Shown here piece by piece: positions 6,902-46,350 of a stretch of 64,000 nucleotides of DNA. The notes beneath the pieces are model-generated. The model saw only the letters and a list, made by a program, of their open reading frames with translations. It had not been told where the DNA came from and did no database searches. The position numbers and the translations under genes were made by a program. The DNA lies in sequence record NZ_CP067021.1. One strand, given 5' to 3'. Source of the DNA: a plasmid. Numbering within the stretch: position 1 is the first letter of the stretch; every line of letters starts with the position of its first letter.

Positions 6902-9900
6902 TCACATCTCAAGTCTTAATTGGTCAGCTTCATTTTCTTTTTCAATCGAAACTTCAGCAATAATTTTTTGGGTATTTTCGTTTTGCAGATCTTGATCAAA
7001 TATTTCATTCACACAAGTTTCGACTAATTGTTCAGTCAAGTTTCTGCAGATCTCAAACTCTAAACCTTTAGGTTGTACGGTAGGGTAGCCGTCAATTAAA
7101 AATGAGTTTTTCATTTCATTTTCATTTGAAACTTTAGAGTACAAATAAGTCTCAAAATAACGGGCAAACATTTCGGTACTGGTCGCGTAATACGGCGTTG
7201 CACGATTTTCAGCACTGTCGATATTTAAACAATCCTTTTTATAACGCGATAGATTGTCACTAAAACGAATATCACCTACGTTTACTTCAACGTCTTGCGA
7301 CTTATCAAAGAAGTTTTGCATTAGAGTATGAGGATTTTTAACACCCTCAGGCATGTACTTCTCTACCAGGTTATAGAACTTGTATTTAGATGACTCTATC
7401 AAGTATTCAGATAGGTTTTGCGATAGTGTTTTTAAATCCACATTCGCTGCAGTCGCAACACCTGTAATTTTTTCTTCCAAACCGGTTGTAGGTAAATGAT
7501 GTTCTGGCTGGCGCATATCATTAAGTTTTTGCTGATAGCGCTCAAACGACTTAAAGCTTATAGCATTAATGTCAGTGTTAATTTTAGAGACAATGACATC
7601 CACCTTGTCTTGAACCGTACTGAAGAAAGATAGGTTTGTATCAGCTTTATATTCACGCTCATACTTCTTCAAGTACTCTTCAATTTTCTCAAACTGACGG
7701 CGAATGAGATCTTCATAGTGCTTTTGGTGCCAGTCAAAGAAGCTGCTTAAAGTTTTGCGCGTAGAATTAGGATAATTCTCTTTATTCTTAATCACTTCAT
7801 CATGCATTGAATCAGCAACAGTGTGGTACGCCTTGATTGCAGTCTCAGCATTCTCATAAAGTACTTGACCGTAATTTTTCATTGGCTGAACTGGCTCATT
7901 CATCATCGCACGATGTAACTTTTCAAAAGCACGACCGGACTCAGTAACAGGGGAGTATCCAGCATCCAACATATTTGATAAGAAGTGTCGTGCACCTGGT
8001 ATCTCAAAATTAGGGATGTCTTCATAATAGTCCTGAAGTACAGAACGATTCATTTGAGCGTGATTTTTATATACTTCCGCTTTTTCCAACATCCCCAAGT
8101 GTGCATCTAGCGCATGGCCATACTCATGAGCCAAACTTCCAGATCCGCTATCACGAGTTAAGTTAACCACGTTCTTAGACAGCTCAAAATGCGCTGCAGA
8201 TCCTTTAATTCCGCGTGAAGCCAAAGCAACACCCAAGTTCAATAAACCATTGTTTGATTTAAAGCCCATGAGTTGTTTTAAGTCAGCCAATGAGTCATAC
8301 ACGGCATTAACCAACTGTTGAGCCACAGGACTAACTTTATTGCCTACTTCAACACCACGGATAGAAAAGTCATCTTTAAGCTTGAATGAATCCACATCGG
8401 CACCTTGGCGATGATCAGGACCAGTACGAGAGTAATTTAACAATCCGTAAATGCTTGATTGGACTTTTTCAGTCACAAAGCCATTTTCAAGTTTTTTCAC
8501 TTCACTGGTAAATGACGGCAAACGTGGTGCTTTAGGTGTATTCACAGCTTCAGTCGTTGCTTCTATAACTGGTGCAACAGGATCTTTAACATAAATAGGT
8601 GCAGATTCAGCTTTAACTAAACCACTTTCAATCGCACTTTTCAGAACGTATGGTTCAAGCACAGTTGAATATAAGCCAGTACGTTGCATGTTGCTGATCG
8701 CATCGCTCACATCTTTAGTGACTTTCGACTTACCGTAAAAATCAAAGATCTTACCTGTTGATAGAATCTCACTAAGTTCTTTATCAATCGTTTTTTCGAT
8801 GATTTTCTCAAGCTGAACACTGATACCGCCTGTATGTTCTGGCATAATGTAGTACTCATTCAAATTGCTAAGCAATTCGAAGTAGTTTTTGTAGTTGTTC
8901 TTGGTACCTTTACTATAAAGCCCGATATAGTCTTTACGTTGGCGATCAGTCATACCAAGACTTTCAGCAGATAAGCTTTTATTGTTTCTTACCGCATGAA
9001 TCAACTCTTCTTGAGTATCTACCATCAAATTTCTGATGTTAGAAACAACAGCCACATACGCACGTAATTCTGTCGCACGTTGGCTATCAAGCATCAACGC
9101 ATTTTTAGAGAATAACGGTTTAGTTGGGCAGTAGTCATACATTGCCTTTACGAATATTTTGTCATCAATACCGAGTGGCGTATTGGTGTACCAAGCTTGG
9201 AATTCTTTATTTGCAACGATTTTTGCTTTTCGATAGTCCGTAGCTGTTTGATCGGCTGATGTCGCTGAAATATATTCCAATGAAATATATTCACCGTAGC
9301 GATCTTTATGTGCACCGCCAAACTTGGCACCTACATCACCTAAGTACGTAGCAGGGGAGTCACTTGGCTCTACCTTTACATCAACAGGCACATATTTGTC
9401 TTTTGGTACCAATTGATCGATAAACGTGAAGTCAGTAAACACACGGTTTTGAAGTTGTAAGACATCTTCAACTGAGCGCATACTTTTAACAGGAAAAACG
9501 CACAGAGACTTGTAATCACCGTGAATATCGGCTTTATCACCAAAAAGTTTAACCGATGCATATTCATTGTCGGTCGATGGCTTGATGGCCAAGAACAATT
9601 TGTGATTTTCAGTTTTGATATACGGCTTTATGTGTGCAGTTTGATCGTATAGAGCACCAAGCGTATTCGTAATCAAAGTTTGGAAATGCAAACTTGCTAA
9701 CTGTTTATTCTCAAAGTCAGTTTTGTGTTTAATCTGAATTTCAGGCAAGTCAGATAGTGCTAATTGCTCTAAAGTGGTACCGAAATTAACCTTAGATTCG
9801 ATAGCATTTAAGATTTCGTGACTAAACTGGTCTACATCATCAAAACCAGTAATCAATTGATACTGATAGTCATGAGACGGTATACGAAGAAGCACGGCAG

Positions 9901-42139: not shown

Positions 42140-42397
42140 TTCTTAAATTCCACGCTTTATATTTTTGATTGCTGGTCATTGACTCAAGCTATTTATAAAA
42201 TACTACAAAACCTCATTGGTATATACTAAGGAGGCAAATAAAAAATTAAAAAATATATTAAAAAGTTTAAGAGTAAATTTTTAAAAAGAAATTTTTTGTT
42301 TATTATCTTTCTAATTAAGGGAAGTTAATTAGGGACATTTTTTATGCTTATTTTTCATGATATTACAGGATTAGTACGGAAAAACACAAATGGTACG

Positions 42398-42439
42398 AGC
42401 GAAAATCAAATTCATTTGAGCGCAAATTGAATTTGAATT
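42398..42439. repeat. Pair of 21-bp direct repeats (GCGAAAATCAAATTCATTTGA / GCGCAAATTGAATTTGAATTT), iteron-like
   Basis: Read directly; same unit as the pair at 42660-42701. Confidence 0.6.
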
Positions 42440-42477
42440 TTTAGAAAATAAGGCGTTTTTAGCTGGTTTTTGATGTT

Positions 42478-42508
42478 TTTATCCACTTTCCTATTAAATT
42501 CTATCCAC
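42478..42508 (+). promoter_or_regulatory. Two DnaA-box-like sites (TTATCCACT at 42478-42486, CTATCCACA at 42500-42508), same orientation, 22 bp apart
   Basis: Each matches the consensus TTATCCACA at 8 of 9 positions. They lie between the two 21-bp repeat pairs, downstream of a very AT-rich stretch at about 42200-42340. Confidence 0.45.
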
Positions 42509-42659
42509 AAATTAAGTTCTTGTATATTAGAATGAATTTAAAAATATGAGTAAAATATTGTTCATTTTTTAGCTTTTTGCAATATTGGAAATTTGCAAAC
42601 TAGCAAGTGTTGTAAGTCGCTGTTTATAATAAAATTAAATAGAATAAAAAATACTTCCA

Positions 42660-42701
42660 GCGCAAATTAAATTCATTTGAGCGCAAATTAAATTCAAAAC
42701 G
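42660..42701. repeat. Pair of 21-bp direct repeats (GCGCAAATTAAATTCATTTGA / GCGCAAATTAAATTCAAAACG), iteron-like
   Basis: Read directly; 17-19 of 21 identical to the units at 42398-42439. Confidence 0.6.
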
Positions 42702-42811
42702 TTGCGGATAACTTCTCCAATTTCCTGAGAGCCTTGATAATAAAGACTTTCAGATTTTATGAGGAATAGCCCTTATATATGACCCAACGATCGCTATTTA
42801 GCTTGTTTTAC

Positions 42812-43712
42812 GACAAATCAATAACTTACGCCATTAGGACGGAAGAAAGTTTACAACCCATTTATAAAAAACTTTCGCTGAGTTCAGACTATAACAGAAA
42901 ATCAATGAGTTACGCCATTAGGACGGAAGAAAGTTTACATCCACTTATAAAAAACTTTCGCTCGTATTTTGACACAACTATAAATCAATAACTTACGTCA
43001 TTAGGACGGAAGAAAGTTTACAACCCATTTATAAAAAACTTTCGCTGGAAGTTAGGTACAGCCAAAAAGTTATAACCTAACCTTAAAACATACTAAACAT
43101 ACTATCTATGATAGTTGAGCTATTGGATCTGGACAAAAAAGTAAAATCAATAACTTACGCTATTAGGACGGAAGAAAGTTTACAACCCATTTATAAAAAA
43201 CTTTCGCTCGTATTTTGGCACCACTATAAATCAACAACTTACATCATTAGGACGGAAGAAAGTTTACACCCACTTATAAAAAACTTTCGCTCGAAATTTG
43301 CCAGCAATATAAATCAACAACTTACATCATTAGGACGGAAGAAAGTTTACAACCCATTTATAAAAAACTTTCGCTCGAAATTTGCCAGCACTATAAATCA
43401 ACAACTTACATCATTAGGACGGAAGAAAGTTTACAACCCATTTATAAAAAACTTTCGCTCGAAATTTGCCAGCACTATAAATCAACAACTTACATCATTA
43501 GGACGGAAGAAAGTTTACAACCCATTTATAAAAAAGTTTCGCTCGAAATTTGCCAGCACTATAAATCAACAACTTACATCATTAGGACGGAAGAAAGTTT
43601 ACAACCCATTTATAAAAAAGTTTCGCTCGTATTTTGGCACCACTATAAAACAATAACTTACGTCATTAGGACGGAAGAAAGTTTACAAACCATTTATAAA
43701 AAAGTTTCGCTG
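42812..43712. repeat. Array of ten 84-bp tandem direct repeats (3 copies, a unique gap of about 78 bp, then 7 copies), each with palindrome GAAAGTTT-N16-AAACTTTC. Candidate iterons or partition centromere.
   Basis: TTAGGACGG unit starts at 42834, 42917, 43001, 43163, 43247, 43330, 43414, 43498, 43582, 43666. Copies 5-9 are nearly identical. Confidence 0.85.
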
Positions 43713-43874
43713 GGTGCCTATCTTGAGCACATATTTATTTGATCAAGTATTACATTGGTTAACTTACATTGTAATTGTGAATATTACTCATATAAGGCAC
43801 TGTTTTTCATAGTCTTATTTATTAAGAAATTACTGTTAAAAATGCTTTTAATCGTAGTCTAATTAACGAATTGA

Positions 43875-43883
43875 TGCTATAAT
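43875..43883 (+). promoter_or_regulatory. Extended -10 promoter element (TGcTATAAT) upstream of the first plus-strand gene
   Basis: TGnTATAAT read at 43875-43883, about 12 nt before the ORF start at 43895. No good -35. Confidence 0.35.
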
Positions 43884-43894
43884 GTCTACTCAGA

Positions 43895-44392
43895 ATGCCT
43901 ATGGGAATTCGAGATATGCAATATCAATCATTTAGTCTTAGACATCAAAAAATACTCATTGACTTCAATGTGTTTAGCTCTGGCTCGTCTGATATTTTGC
44001 TAAAAGGTGTTTTATCTGCCGAATTGCTTATTCTAGTTGATAATTTAAATGCATTTTATTCTGCAGAAGACGGTAGATACGTTGTATCAGCTGAAAAAGT
44101 TAACCACGTTACAGGTCTAGATTTTAATAAGAAAACTATCAACCAGATCATGCGTGAAGCTTGTGATTTATCATTTATGATTGATACAGATGCGAAGCAA
44201 GCTGCAGCACCTATGATTGACGAAATTCAAATCTTATCAAGTGGCGATATTACTTTTAAACTCACTAAAAGCTTTGATTTTTTTAGAAATTCTCTTAGTT
44301 TTAAAAGCATATATGAGAAGCTACCATACAGGTTCACTACTTCTAAACTAGAGTTACCGCAGATCGGTCAACAAATAATGTTAATTGCGTAA
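43895..44392 (+). CDS. Hypothetical protein, 165 aa; first gene rightwards of the origin-like region
   Basis: ORF followed by a hairpin terminator. Start may be the downstream Met at 43916. Confidence 0.5.
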   Translation: MPMGIRDMQYQSFSLRHQKILIDFNVFSSGSSDILLKGVLSAELLILVDNLNAFYSAEDGRYVVSAEKVNHVTGLDFNKKTINQIMREACDLSFMIDTDAKQAAAPMIDEIQILSSGDITFKLTKSFDFFRNSLSFKSIYEKLPYRFTTSKLELPQIGQQIMLIA

Positions 44393-44394
44393 TT

Positions 44395-44418
44395 AAGCCT
44401 CTGACGAGGCTTTTTTAT
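44395..44418 (+). terminator. Rho-independent terminator
   Basis: AAGCCTC-tgac-GAGGCTT followed by TTTTTATT. Confidence 0.55.
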
Positions 44419-44559
44419 TGTCTAAAATTTAGTTAGTATATACACAGCTTTAAAGCGAAAAGACTACAACGTTAGTTGGGTTGCAAATATATTTTTATTT
44501 TTATTTTTTAATTCAATCTCAGGCAATGTACGTTGTACGTTGTCTAAAGTGGAGCAGTT

Positions 44560-46350
44560 ATGCAAGATTCTTCACAAGTCTGCATAAGTAAAGGAATTTC
44601 AGAAGATGAAATTTTTGGACTATCGCAGTCAATCAAAGACTCAATTATTAATGCCGAAACAAAAACCATGGATCTCTTGGGTTACGGCAACAAAATCAGT
44701 AATTTCATAGTCGAATGTTATCTAGATATTCCAGTTGTTGATCAATTCATTTTTTACTTAATGTTGGTGAATGCCAAAAATAAGTATGCACATCAGCTGC
44801 AGCGCGTTATCGCTGAAAAACCTGAATTATCCCAAATTGAAGCATTACAACTAGCGAACAACTTTGTTCTGAATTTTGAATACATCCGTCAAATTCTTTT
44901 ATTCAAAAATAAAGCTAATTACCTTAGCAATGGCCGTATCAAATCTTTGGCATGGAATACGCTAAATAGTGTTGGTAAAGTGATGCTACCAATGAGCTCT
45001 TTACGCCAAATGGACAGCGAACCATTTTCAAGAAATGACGTAGACAGCGTAACTCATAAAAGAATGTTTGCCAGTACGGGCTATTTTGAATTAGATAACA
45101 ATGCGTTTATTTGCTATCAGCTTGAAGAAACGTTGATTGCCAATCTATCTGAATTAGATTTTGATAAAAAGGGGCGCTACACAGTTCTCGACACTTTAAC
45201 GGTTCTTGGATTTAAGGACCGTTTTGATCTTTATATGTATAACTTGATGAAGATCAATGAGTTTCGTGGCGAAGTGGTTATTCCTTACATTGACTTCAAA
45301 GCATTAACCGAGTTTTCAGTAGAATTTAAATACAAAGCAAGTGATTTTTACCGTAAACGACTTCTTGTTTCATTAGAAAGACTGAATAACAATCCATCTA
45401 TTGAATTATTTATTTCTGTTAAGTATGAACCATGCAATAAGCGTACACCAGATCGTGACAATTTTTGCAATTATCGTTTTCAGATTCAGTTGAAGTCCAA
45501 CTATCGTAAAGCGCTTAATACATTAAATGAAATGTGTGCAAAGGTTCAGGATGAACAGGGCAATGAGCTTAAAATCAGTAATGCGCTCTTCACTTCAGCA
45601 ATTCGATTGAATAATGGTGAACCTGAAAAAGTAATAGAACTTGTTAAGGATCGTTTAGCTGCTTATACAACTAAGAATGGACCATCATATTTAGCTAAAA
45701 ATCTTAATTTGGTTGCGTCTTATGTTACGCGAGCTCTAGAAGATCTATATAAAAGTAATCACTTCTTTGAAAGATTCCTAAACGATATGAAGCAAGCAGA
45801 TAATTTACTTTATCTGAGAAATCGTGATAAGAAAGTTGAGATCGAAAACAAAAGTGCATCTACTTTCTCAAGCGAATTCATTAATATTCGCGACAAAGTT
45901 GATGTTACCACTTGTGAAATTCTTACAAACGCTGAGTACATTTCAAAGAAAACGGAAGCTACTGTAATTATTGATTATGCTTTCATACGTAATTCTATTT
46001 TTATTACACATCCTCATTTGCGCCACCAGCGAAATGCAGACGAGAAAAAATACATAGATCTCGTGTGTGAAAGCACAAAGCTTTGCCAAATATTCTTTGG
46101 TACGGGTAATGAAAATAAAAAAACGTTAACTCAAAACTATTTAACAGAACTCCTGTTTGAACATTTTTTTGATGATAATTTCCACTTGAACTCAGATGTA
46201 TTAAAGAATCTTCTAAAAAAAGATAAGGACTATTGGGTACAAGAAAAGCAAAAGACATTTATGCGGTTGTGGAAACTTGCAAATGAGTTCAGTTTAAAAG
46301 CTATTAGTCCAGCGAACTACAACGGTAAAGAGAGTTCAGACAATGAATAA
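44560..46350 (+). CDS. Hypothetical protein, 596 aa (candidate replication or partition-associated protein by position only)
   Basis: 1791-nt ORF 850 bp right of the repeat array; no diagnostic motif recognised. Confidence 0.65.
   Translation: MQDSSQVCISKGISEDEIFGLSQSIKDSIINAETKTMDLLGYGNKISNFIVECYLDIPVVDQFIFYLMLVNAKNKYAHQLQRVIAEKPELSQIEALQLANNFVLNFEYIRQILLFKNKANYLSNGRIKSLAWNTLNSVGKVMLPMSSLRQMDSEPFSRNDVDSVTHKRMFASTGYFELDNNAFICYQLEETLIANLSELDFDKKGRYTVLDTLTVLGFKDRFDLYMYNLMKINEFRGEVVIPYIDFKALTEFSVEFKYKASDFYRKRLLVSLERLNNNPSIELFISVKYEPCNKRTPDRDNFCNYRFQIQLKSNYRKALNTLNEMCAKVQDEQGNELKISNALFTSAIRLNNGEPEKVIELVKDRLAAYTTKNGPSYLAKNLNLVASYVTRALEDLYKSNHFFERFLNDMKQADNLLYLRNRDKKVEIENKSASTFSSEFINIRDKVDVTTCEILTNAEYISKKTEATVIIDYAFIRNSIFITHPHLRHQRNADEKKYIDLVCESTKLCQIFFGTGNENKKTLTQNYLTELLFEHFFDDNFHLNSDVLKNLLKKDKDYWVQEKQKTFMRLWKLANEFSLKAISPANYNGKESSDNE

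What the first reader, a model, noticed from the sequence alone, without database searches (positions are those of the whole stretch)
42140..43900. Origin-like strand-switch region: AT-rich tract, two DnaA boxes, two pairs of 21-bp direct repeats and an 84-bp repeat array
All genes from 2.4 kb to 42.1 kb lie on the minus strand, and all genes from 43.9 kb onward lie on the plus strand, apart from a few convergent ones. The 1.75-kb non-coding hinge contains four elements. First, a tract of about 140 bp with more than 85% AT (42200-42340). Second, DnaA-box-like TTATCCACT and CTATCCACA sites (42478-42508). Third, four copies of a 21-bp unit GCG[CA]AAAT[TC][AG]AATT[CT]ATTTGA arranged as pairs at 42398-42439 and 42660-42701, flanking the DnaA boxes. 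Fourth, a ten-copy 84-bp array. This matches the classical layout of an iteron-type plasmid or phage-plasmid oriV with divergent transcription. Neither flanking protein (544 aa to the left; 165 and 596 aa to the right) resembles a Rep family I can recognise by eye, so the initiator may be novel.
Basis: partly seen in the sequence, partly recalled or inferred. Interest (0 to 1): 0.75.

Follow-up and report, generated by a model that had tools for sequence, protein, structure and literature searches.

The report
Acinetobacter megaplasmid replication origin candidate
This non-coding hinge is very probably the replication origin of a widespread family of Acinetobacter antibiotic-resistance megaplasmids; it was proposed in 2021 but never tested, and comparison with diverged relatives now pins down a compact DnaA-box/iteron core and shows that the neighbouring orphan protein has the fold of classical plasmid initiators.

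Summary
The window is backbone of the Acinetobacter group III-4a megaplasmids (pXBB1-9, pALWED1.1, p34AB). Mindlin et al. 2021 (PMC8490738) already proposed the 596-aa gene as rep and the ten 83-84-bp repeats as iterons, without experiment. So the main claim is published but unproven.

New evidence here:
- An origin core at 42399-42711 keeps exact spacing in four lineages whose 596-aa proteins are 100, 81, 61 and 51% identical: iteron-21-iteron-59/60-DnaA box-22-DnaA box-159-iteron-21-iteron-22-inverted DnaA box.
- The 84-bp array evolves fast. Each unit keeps an IHF-consensus box about 21-23 bp from a core motif, which suggests an auxiliary or copy-control element rather than the initiating iterons.
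- parAB has its own 47-bp palindrome array about 57 kb away, which argues against a centromere role.
- Plasmid-wide skew minima fall at this region.

Best reading: an iteron-type, DnaA-dependent oriV (confidence about 0.7). Interest is moderate.

The parts
42140..42231 (-). Upstream/promoter region of the leftward operon (544-aa gene and the giant polyvalent-protein genes). Contains the palindrome GTATATAC at 42219-42226.
   Evidence: The blocks TATAAAATACTATAAA and GGTATATACTAA are invariant in three lineages. TAGTATATAC-type motifs number 20 against 3.7 expected and sit in backbone intergenic regions.
42232..42312 (.). A/T tract, 88% AT. It contains the least stable 60-mer of the 64-kb window (42237-42296, 93% AT).
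   Evidence: The tract is A-rich in all three aligned lineages.
42399..42440 (+). Iteron pair A: two 21-bp direct repeats, GCGAAAATCAAATTCATTTGA and GCGCAAATTGAATTTGAATTT.
   Evidence: A pair with 21-bp spacing sits at the same position in L019, L002 and L004.
42479..42487 (+). DnaA box 1 (TTATCCACT). The relatives have TTATCCACA, TTATCCACA and TTATTCACA.
42501..42509 (+). DnaA box 2 (CTATCCACA), 22 bp after box 1 in all four lineages.
42510..42659 (.). AT-rich spacer (79% AT overall; 42511-42570 is 85%). Candidate DNA-unwinding element between the DnaA boxes and iteron pair B.
   Evidence: Box 2 to iteron 3 (start to start) is 159 bp in three lineages and 138 bp in L004. Unwinding is inferred.
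42660..42701 (+). Iteron pair B: GCGCAAATTAAATTCATTTGA and GCGCAAATTAAATTCAAAACG.
42703..42711 (-). DnaA box 3, inverted (TTATCCGCA). It lies 22 bp after the start of iteron 4 in all four lineages.
42813..43063 (+). 84-bp array, units 1-3.
43064..43141 (.). 78-bp non-repeat insert that interrupts the array.
   Evidence: Unit spacing jumps to 162 bp here.
43142..43728 (+). 84-bp array, units 4-10. Each unit holds an IHF-consensus box AATCAAYAACTTA, a 47-bp invariant core ATTAGGACGGAAGAAAGTTTACAACCCATTTATAAAAAACTTTCGCT, and a variable spacer of about 19 bp.
   Evidence: The core occurs nowhere else in the window or in a 207-kb relative.
43875..43883 (+). Extended -10 promoter element TGCTATAAT of the small gene. 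Conserved as TGCTATAAT in L002 and TGATATAAT in L004.
   Evidence: Read directly. The simple scan did not list it because there is no good -35.
43895..44392 (+). Small co-conserved gene: a 165-aa ORF whose real start is probably the ATG at 43916, giving 158 aa. Possible Rep_3-N/WH1-like DNA-binding protein.
   Evidence: Always found immediately upstream of the 596-aa gene. The family is very narrow. One divergent member hits PF01051 Rep3_N at E=0.003 and 18.4 bits, below the 22.4-bit cut-off.
44395..44420 (+). Intrinsic terminator after the small gene.
   Evidence: Conserved in the relatives.
44434..44443 (+). TAGTATATAC motif upstream of the 596-aa gene. It is the same motif as at 42219 on the other strand.
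44522..44544 (+). Dyad-symmetric element just upstream of the Shine-Dalgarno sequence of the 596-aa gene.
   Evidence: A stem is retained at the same place in four lineages, with different sequence in the window. Folding energies are not exceptional.
44560..46350 (+). Candidate initiator (596 aa). Its central winged-helix domain is residues 196-345 (window 45145-45594).

Best explanation
The hinge is the vegetative replication origin (oriV) of the group III-4a Acinetobacter megaplasmids, and it is an iteron-type, DnaA-assisted theta origin.

Proposed mechanism; every step is inferred, none is shown:
1. The plasmid initiator is the 596-aa protein, which has a RepE/Pi-type winged-helix domain. 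The co-conserved 158-aa protein may act with it.
2. The initiator binds the four 21-bp iterons, which lie in two pairs at 42399-42440 and 42660-42701.
3. Host DnaA binds the three boxes at 42479, 42501 and 42703.
4. Together they open one of the AT-rich stretches: either the 150 bp between box 2 and iteron pair B, or the 93%-AT tract at 42237-42296.
5. Replication then proceeds bidirectionally, in the same direction as the two divergent operons.

The ten-unit 84-bp array lies between the core and the rep genes. It is a second, auxiliary class of site. Each unit pairs an IHF-consensus box with a core motif, repeated every eight helical turns. Its most likely role is copy-number control by titration or handcuffing, or an architectural enhancer, rather than the site of initiation.
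For: 1. Conserved architecture. In four lineages with 596-aa proteins 100, 81, 61 and 51% identical, the order and spacing are the same: iteron-21-iteron-59/60-DnaA(+)-22-DnaA(+)-159-iteron-21-iteron-22-DnaA(-), with 138 instead of 159 in the most distant lineage. The intervening sequence has diverged. The boxes are perfect TTATNCACA in two of the three relatives (L002, L004); in the third, L019, the inverted box is TTATCCATA, one mismatch.

3. Fixed gene neighbourhood. The SNF2 giant, the 545-569-aa gene, a hinge of about 1.6 kb, the 158-161-aa gene and the 587-591-aa gene keep the same order in all relatives.

4. No other Rep. The complete 207-kb family member pHNJXA13-1 has no other annotated Rep. 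Ghaly et al. found none in 17 of 21 plasmids.

5. Skew. In pHNJXA13-1 the cumulative AT-skew minimum is at 193,373, inside the hinge (192,168-193,859). The detrended cumulative GC-skew minimum is at 196,206, on a flat plateau from 185 to 207 kb. The cumulative GC-skew minimum of the window falls in the 43-44 kb bin.

6. Not dispersed. The 21-mer and the 47-bp array core occur only here.

7. Array units. Nine of ten units carry an exact WATCAANNNNTTR match, all on one strand; the window has 22 such matches in total against 8.3 expected. In the 81% lineage the units keep 81-86-bp spacing although their spacers have diverged so far that TRF finds no repeat. The box-to-core distance is 21-23 bp in all four lineages. 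In L004 and L002 the array core groups with the origin 21-mers (GCGAAWTTTAAWT).

8. Centromere elsewhere. parAB has its own centromere-like array.
Against: - There is no experimental evidence. No later functional study turned up in the literature searches.
- The protein matches no Rep family by sequence: Pfam at E<=10 in seven members, PHROGs and NCBIfam, PDB profiles, and only 8 cluster representatives among 1.84 billion proteins.
- Foldseek did not retrieve Rep structures.
- Only one winged-helix domain is modelled with confidence, from a seven-sequence alignment. The rest of the protein models poorly (pLDDT 46).
- Four iterons split 2+2 is unusual, and the rep gene lies 1.85 kb from the core.
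- The three DnaA boxes of this lineage each deviate by one base, and such a cluster has a chance probability of about 0.1 in one sequence.
- Skew is confounded with the strand switch of the genes.
- A PWM built from the relatives' iteron-like sites picks up the window's four 21-mers but not its array cores. In this lineage there is therefore no direct sequence link between the array and the iterons.
Confidence: 0.7

Rival explanations
1. The published reading (Mindlin et al. 2021): the ten 83-84-bp repeats are themselves the iterons at which the Rep protein initiates replication, as proposed for the 81-bp repeats of IncHI2 plasmid R478. On this reading the 21-mers and DnaA boxes are incidental.
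For: The array is the most conspicuous repeat next to the candidate rep and is present in all family members. Units are phased at eight helical turns. The array core resembles the origin 21-mers in two relatives.
Against: The array is the least conserved part of the hinge. Unit spacing is 84 bp in two lineages but 66-68 and 67-172 bp in the others, the core sequence changes, and copy number differs between near-identical plasmids. The 21-mer/DnaA-box module is conserved to the base pair in spacing. The array is only 67% AT and has no adjacent DnaA box.
Confidence: 0.1
2. The 84-bp array is a centromere or plasmid-pairing site, in the style of sopC or parS, bound by the small 158-aa protein. 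It serves partition rather than replication.
For: Long tandem units with an internal inverted repeat (GAAAGTTT-N16-AAACTTTC) and an IHF site recall F sopC and P1 parS (own knowledge). The array sits directly upstream of the small gene.
Against: No ParA- or ParM-type gene is adjacent. In the complete relative, parA-parB lie about 57 kb away and have their own upstream array of about 20 units of 47 bp, each with the 17-bp palindrome TTATCAGNCTGATAATG. A ParM/StbA system sits beside them. The inverted repeat is broken in units 8-10.
Confidence: 0.08
3. The hinge is a purely transcriptional control region for the two divergent backbone operons. The repeats are operators for a winged-helix regulator, and the DnaA boxes act as DnaA-dependent regulatory sites. 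The origin is elsewhere.
For: Both operons start here. The GTATATAC motif shared with many other backbone intergenic regions occurs at both ends of the hinge. Winged-helix proteins are mostly transcription factors.
Against: The best structural matches are specifically plasmid initiators, not regulators. The strict iteron/DnaA-box/AT-rich geometry is that of origins. No alternative Rep or origin is annotated on the 207-kb plasmid. The skew minima coincide with the hinge.
Confidence: 0.07
4. [quoted passage not shown]
For: The relaxase and oriT of this family are still unidentified although conjugation is proven. IHF sites and repeats are common at oriTs. Polyvalent SNF2/LPD1 proteins are typical of conjugative elements (own knowledge).
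Against: No relaxase-like or accessory gene is adjacent. DnaA boxes, 21-bp phased direct repeats and a Rep-fold protein are features of oriV, not oriT. The T4SS and coupling-protein genes lie tens of kb away.
Confidence: 0.05

Closest known systems
F plasmid ori2 with RepE, and R6K gamma origin with Pi (iteron-type theta replicons)
   Different: There are only four iterons, split 2+2 around the DnaA boxes and AT-rich region. The initiator is 596 aa, against about 250-300 aa. It has no detectable sequence similarity to Rep_3, and about 200 N-terminal and 250 C-terminal residues are of unknown fold. rep lies 1.85 kb from the core, behind an array and a separate small gene.
P1 oriR/incC with incA, and F incC: a second iteron cluster that controls copy number by handcuffing or titration (own knowledge)
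   Same: There are two spatially separate classes or clusters of repeats. The larger cluster (ten units) lies outside the minimal origin and next to rep.
   Different: Here the second cluster consists of 84-bp composite units (an IHF box plus a 47-bp core). In this lineage the units no longer resemble the origin iterons. No incompatibility or copy-number data exist.
Vibrio cholerae chromosome 2 ori2 with RctB (own knowledge; PDB 5UBF)
   Same: The initiator is large and multi-domain, with Rep-like winged-helix domains embedded between extra domains. There are two classes of binding site: short iterons at the origin and longer regulatory sites (39-mers).
IncHI2 plasmid R478 RepHI2A replicon with twelve 81-bp repeats (as cited by Mindlin et al. 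2021)
   Same: Many unusually long tandem repeats of about 80 bp lie several hundred bp upstream of the rep start.
   Different: No sequence relationship: tblastn of the 596-aa protein against 72,556 plasmids finds only the III-4a family. I did not examine the R478 repeats here.
F sopC / P1 parS centromeres
   Same: Tandem units carry an internal inverted repeat and, as in P1 parS, an IHF site between the arms.
   Different: The array is not next to partition genes. A separate sopC-like 47-bp array sits upstream of parAB elsewhere on the plasmid.

Membership tests
Iteron-type theta replicons (RepE/Pi/RepA class) | The initiator has the Rep winged-helix fold (a WH1-WH2 tandem). | tested here: inconclusive
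Iteron-type theta replicons (RepE/Pi/RepA class) | Directly repeated iterons of about 17-22 bp in helical register at the origin. | tested here: met
   Four 21-bp repeats in two pairs, unique in the window, with position and spacing conserved in four lineages.
Iteron-type theta replicons (RepE/Pi/RepA class) | Host DnaA boxes and an AT-rich unwinding region adjoin the iterons. | tested here: met
   Three boxes with conserved position and orientation; all three match TTATNCACA perfectly in L002 and L004, and two of three do in L019. The AT-rich stretches are 79-93% AT. Actual DnaA binding and unwinding were not tested.
Iteron-type theta replicons (RepE/Pi/RepA class) | Rep binds the iterons, and the fragment replicates autonomously. 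| not testable with these tools
   This needs mini-replicon, EMSA or footprinting experiments. No such study turned up in the literature searches.
Pfam Rep_3 (PF01051), the family named by Mindlin et al. 2021 | A sequence match to the Rep_3 profile at or above the gathering score. | tested here: not met
   No PF01051 hit at E<=10 for any of seven family members of the 596-aa protein. For the small protein, one of seven members scores 18.4 bits (E 0.003), below the 22.4-bit cut-off.
IncHI2 RepHI2A (R478) long-iteron replicon | Homology of the Rep protein. | tested here: not met
   tblastn against PLSDB at E<=1e-3 returns only 65 Acinetobacter III-4a plasmids.
ParABS / sopC-type centromere | A repeat array adjacent to, and recognised by, a ParB encoded with ParA. 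| tested here: not met
   parA-parB are about 57 kb away in pHNJXA13-1 and have their own 47-bp palindrome array. No par gene flanks the hinge.
Origin of transfer (oriT) | Adjacent relaxase or relaxosome accessory genes, and a nick region with an inverted repeat. | tested here: inconclusive
   No relaxase-like protein is adjacent or recognisable among the candidates tested. The family's relaxase is unknown in the literature, so adjacency cannot be excluded formally.
Phage-plasmid | Phage structural or replication genes, or similarity to phage genomes. | tested here: not met
   No match of the hinge in 50,697 phage records. No relative in IMG/VR. The backbone encodes a Dot/Icm-type T4SS.

The most novel reading that the evidence does not exclude
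The replicon uses a bipartite initiator and two classes of site.
- A sequence-orphan 596-aa protein carries a single RepE-like winged-helix domain between two large domains of unknown fold.
- It works together with a separately encoded 158-aa WH1-like protein, in effect a split and expanded Rep.
- The four 21-mers form the firing site.
- The phased 84-bp units (IHF box plus core) form a wrapped regulatory nucleoprotein array, comparable to the RctB 39-mers or P1 incA, that sets the copy number of a plasmid of 200-400 kb.
Probability: 0.2. Interest if true: 0.6.

Novelty: already known. Interest (0 to 1): 0.38.

Why it matters
Group III-4a megaplasmids (200-400 kb) carry tet(X3), blaNDM-1 and many other resistance genes across at least a dozen Acinetobacter species. 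Rep-based typing schemes still list them as having no identifiable rep, and their relaxase and oriT are also unknown.

A defined minimal origin of about 320 bp and a structurally supported initiator would have practical uses:
- The replicon could be tested directly with a mini-replicon.
- The family would gain a typing and incompatibility marker.
- The origin would offer a target for plasmid-curing strategies.

The design itself may show how very large plasmids control copy number: a 2+2 iteron core plus a rapidly evolving, helically phased array with IHF sites, and a Rep protein twice the usual size.

Tried and rejected
Sequence searches that found nothing:
- 596-aa protein: Pfam, PHROGs, NCBIfam, and PDB by sequence and by profile.
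- Small protein: Pfam, PHROGs, NCBIfam, and PDB by sequence and by profile.
- 544-aa protein: Pfam, PHROGs and NCBIfam only.

Other dead ends:
- An exhaustive HMMER profile search of 1.84 billion representatives found only the family itself.
- The full-length AlphaFold model was too poor to use (pLDDT 46), and its Foldseek hits were meaningless.
- hhalign found no similarity between the small and the large protein.
- A profile search with the small-protein family found no Rep_3 link.
- Rfam found no RNA family in 41.5-45.0 kb.
- Scans of genome, viral and metagenome contigs added no new diverged loci.
- Pfam on candidate relaxase or primase genes of pHNJXA13-1 gave nothing that would locate oriT.
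- A PWM built from the relatives' iteron-like sites did not recognise the window's array cores. I therefore dropped the claim that, in this lineage, the array is simply more iterons.

Readings rejected:
- The ORF inside the array is not a gene.
- The element is not a phage-plasmid.
- The repeats are not a dispersed element.
Full report
WHAT THE WINDOW IS. The hinge 42140-43900 matches 67 PLSDB plasmids, all from Acinetobacter and 200-400 kb long, at 80-99% identity. It matches no phage record. The matching plasmids include pXBB1-9, p34AB and pHNJXA13-1, which belong to the group III-4a megaplasmids. Annotation of p34AB around the match shows almost only hypothetical proteins. To the left are giant LPD1 and strawberry-notch (SNF2) polyvalent proteins.

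THE OBSERVATION. All listed elements exist.
- The strand switch is real.
- TRF finds an 84-bp array at 42815-43711 with 10.8 copies. Unit by unit there are ten units in two blocks, 3 and 7, split by a 78-bp insert at 43064-43141.
- The four 21-mers start at 42399, 42420, 42660 and 42681 and are unique in the window.
- The two DnaA-like boxes are at 42479 and 42501. A third, inverted box at 42703-42711 was missed.
- The stated AT tract is 80% AT rather than >85%. However, 42237-42296 (93% AT) is the least stable 60-mer of the entire 64 kb.
- One-mismatch DnaA boxes are frequent: 28 against 19.7 expected. The three-box cluster is unique in the window and in a 207-kb relative, but it has a chance probability of about 0.1. 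Taken alone it proves little.
- The 182-aa ORF inside the array exists only because the period is 28 codons. The relatives have no ORF there.

PRIOR LITERATURE. Mindlin et al. 2021 (PMC8490738) nominated a 1791-bp gene of pALWED1.1 as rep. Its size and its position relative to the repeats identify it as window 44560-46350. They nominated ten 83-84-bp repeats 830 bp upstream as iterons. Their arguments were conservation, proximity and a low similarity to pfam01051, with R478 as an analogue, and they stated that proof is lacking. That paper does not mention DnaA boxes, IHF sites or the 21-mers. Ghaly et al. 2020 found no Rep in 17 of 21 plasmids. Lam et al. 2022 still class the pALWED1.1 type as having no identifiable rep. 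A 2024 preprint notes that the relaxase and oriT of the family are unidentified. The headline of the finding is therefore published, but only as an untested hypothesis.

THE INITIATOR CANDIDATE.
- The 596-aa protein has no hit in Pfam (at E<=10 across seven family members), PHROGs, NCBIfam or PDB sequences. The reported Rep_3 similarity is not reproducible.
- The family is tiny: nine proteins in a 5.8-billion-sequence search and eight cluster representatives among 1.84 billion. In PLSDB it occurs only in the III-4a plasmids, at 97.6% identity or more.
- The full-length AlphaFold model is poor (pLDDT 46) except for residues about 220-330.
- Residues 196-345, remodelled alone, give pLDDT 80.7 and a winged-helix topology.
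- Foldseek against the PDB found nothing significant.
- This is specific structural support for an iteron-binding initiator domain. The caveats are that it rests on a seven-sequence alignment and covers only one domain.

THE SMALL GENE. The 165-aa ORF probably starts at 43916, giving 158 aa. It always precedes the large gene and is equally restricted in distribution. It is followed by a terminator. Its most divergent homologue gives a sub-threshold Rep3_N (WH1) hit: E 0.003 and 18.4 bits, against a cut-off of 22.4. This is a hint only. hhalign finds no similarity to the large protein.

COMPARATIVE ANATOMY: THE KEY RESULT. Diverged relatives of the 596-aa protein were traced to contigs:
- L019, 81% identity;
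- L002, L020 and L022, 61% identity, including a complete 209-kb A. gandensis plasmid;
- L003 and L004, 51% identity.

All keep the same gene order around a hinge of about 1.6 kb. In all four lineages the left part of the hinge has the same order and spacing: iteron, 21 bp, iteron, 59-60 bp, DnaA box (+), 22 bp, DnaA box (+), 159 bp (138 in L004), iteron, 21 bp, iteron, 22 bp, DnaA box (-). The sequence between these elements has diverged. The boxes match TTATNCACA perfectly in L002 and L004; in L019 the inverted box is TTATCCATA, one mismatch. The iteron sequence drifts from GCGCAAATTAAATTC to GCGCATTTTAAATTC to ACGAATTTTAAATTT. This base-pair-exact geometry is what a constrained initiation complex would give, and it turns the weak single-sequence evidence into strong evidence for function.

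THE ARRAY. Each window unit consists of three parts:
- an exact IHF consensus (WATCAANNNNTTR), present in 9 of 10 units and always on the + strand;
- a 47-bp invariant core that contains the inverted repeat GAAAGTTT-N16-AAACTTTC, broken in units 8-10;
- a variable spacer of about 19 bp.

The core occurs nowhere else in the window or in the 207-kb plasmid. Copy number differs between near-identical plasmids: 10.8 here and 9.8 in p34AB, with shorter matches in others.

In the 81% lineage the units keep 81-86-bp spacing although their spacers have diverged so far that TRF reports no repeat. The phasing of eight helical turns therefore appears to be selected. In the 61% and 51% lineages the spacing is irregular (66-172 bp), but each unit still pairs a CAATAnCTTA box with a core 21 bp downstream. 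In those lineages the core groups with the origin 21-mers (GCGAAWTTTAAWT).

A PWM built from the relatives' sites recognises the window's 21-mers but not its array cores. In this lineage the link between the array and the iterons is therefore positional only. I conclude that the array is a fast-evolving auxiliary element. Copy control or an architectural role is the most plausible function; this is inferred.

RIVALS.
- Centromere. In pHNJXA13-1, parA-parB lie about 57 kb away. They have their own array of about 20 units of 47 bp, each with a 17-bp palindrome, and a ParM system sits beside them.
- oriT. No relaxase is recognisable anywhere, so this cannot be excluded formally. However, DnaA boxes, phased iterons and a Rep-fold protein point to oriV.
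- Pure transcriptional control. A GTATATAC palindrome occurs at both ends of the hinge, but it is a backbone-wide intergenic motif (20 matches against 3.7 expected). It does not explain the core.

SKEW. In the complete 206,931-bp pHNJXA13-1 the hinge lies at 192,168-193,859. The cumulative AT-skew minimum is at 193,373. The detrended cumulative GC-skew minimum is at 196,206, on a flat plateau from 185 to 207 kb, and the maxima are near 134-137 kb. It is confounded with gene orientation.

VERDICT. The interpretation as an iteron-type oriV is well supported computationally (about 0.7) but is not new in outline. Four points add to the published account:
- a conserved DnaA-box/21-mer core;
- structural rather than sequence support for the initiator;
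- demotion of the 84-bp array to an auxiliary role;
- exclusion of the ParAB-centromere reading.

Interest is moderate.

Noticed in passing
L008:41563-42550 (pHNJXA13-1, NZ_CP054138.1; outside the window): About 20 tandem 47-bp units, each carrying the 17-bp palindrome TTATCAGNCTGATAATG, lie directly upstream of parA-parB. This is a sopC-like centromere candidate for the megaplasmid family.
   Followed up: partly
window 1444, 6420, 14258, 22496, 27072, 33768, 33815, 42219, 44434, 47026, 51094 and others: The motif TAGTATATAC (palindrome core GTATATAC) occurs 20 times against 3.7 expected. Most of the sites checked lie in intergenic regions upstream of backbone operons, on both sides of the hinge; a few are inside ORFs. 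It is probably a backbone-wide operator or promoter element.
   Followed up: partly
window 44522-44544; L019:1738-1755; L002:9969-9986; L004:9968-9985: A dyad-symmetric element lies just upstream of the Shine-Dalgarno sequence of the 596-aa gene. In the relatives it is GGCAAT-GTGA-ATTGCC. In the window the sequence differs but forms an 11-bp stem. It could be an autoregulatory operator or a 5'-UTR hairpin. Folding energies are not exceptional.
   Followed up: partly
window 42813-43728 compared with L001:20676-21488 and the hits: The copy number of the 84-bp array differs between near-identical plasmids: 10.8 copies here and 9.8 in p34AB. The match is about 250 bp shorter in NZ_CP078019.1. This may be real polymorphism or assembly collapse.
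   Followed up: partly
window 43064-43141: The 78-bp insert that splits the array into 3+7 units shares a short stretch (ATAACCT...AAAACATACTA) with the sequence that follows the array in L002 (about 9060-9085). This suggests that the array expanded on both sides of an older boundary. The similarity was judged by eye only.
   Followed up: no
window 43108-43656; L001:20969-21433: PGAP annotates a hypothetical protein (WP_042066634.1) inside the array of p34AB. The ORF is a by-product of the 28-codon period and is absent from the diverged relatives.
   Followed up: yes
window 2429-42139 (minus strand): The leftward operon encodes four giant proteins of 2418, 2428, 1468 and 2210 aa. They include LPD1-domain and strawberry-notch/SNF2 polyvalent proteins typical of conjugative elements. 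The 544-aa protein next to the hinge has no detectable homology to any family.
   Followed up: no
L011:8414-13208 (pHNJXA13-1 158414-163208; outside the window): Four adjacent genes encode a nucleotidyltransferase, a ThiF/E1-like protein, a Mov34/JAB protein and a SAVED-domain protein. This looks like a type II CBASS anti-phage system on the megaplasmid. I judged it from the annotation only.
   Followed up: no
L005, L006, L007, L013, L014, L015 (short-read contigs): Short-read assemblies of relatives repeatedly end just upstream of the small gene, at the repeat array. Draft genomes will therefore usually lack this hinge.
   Followed up: no
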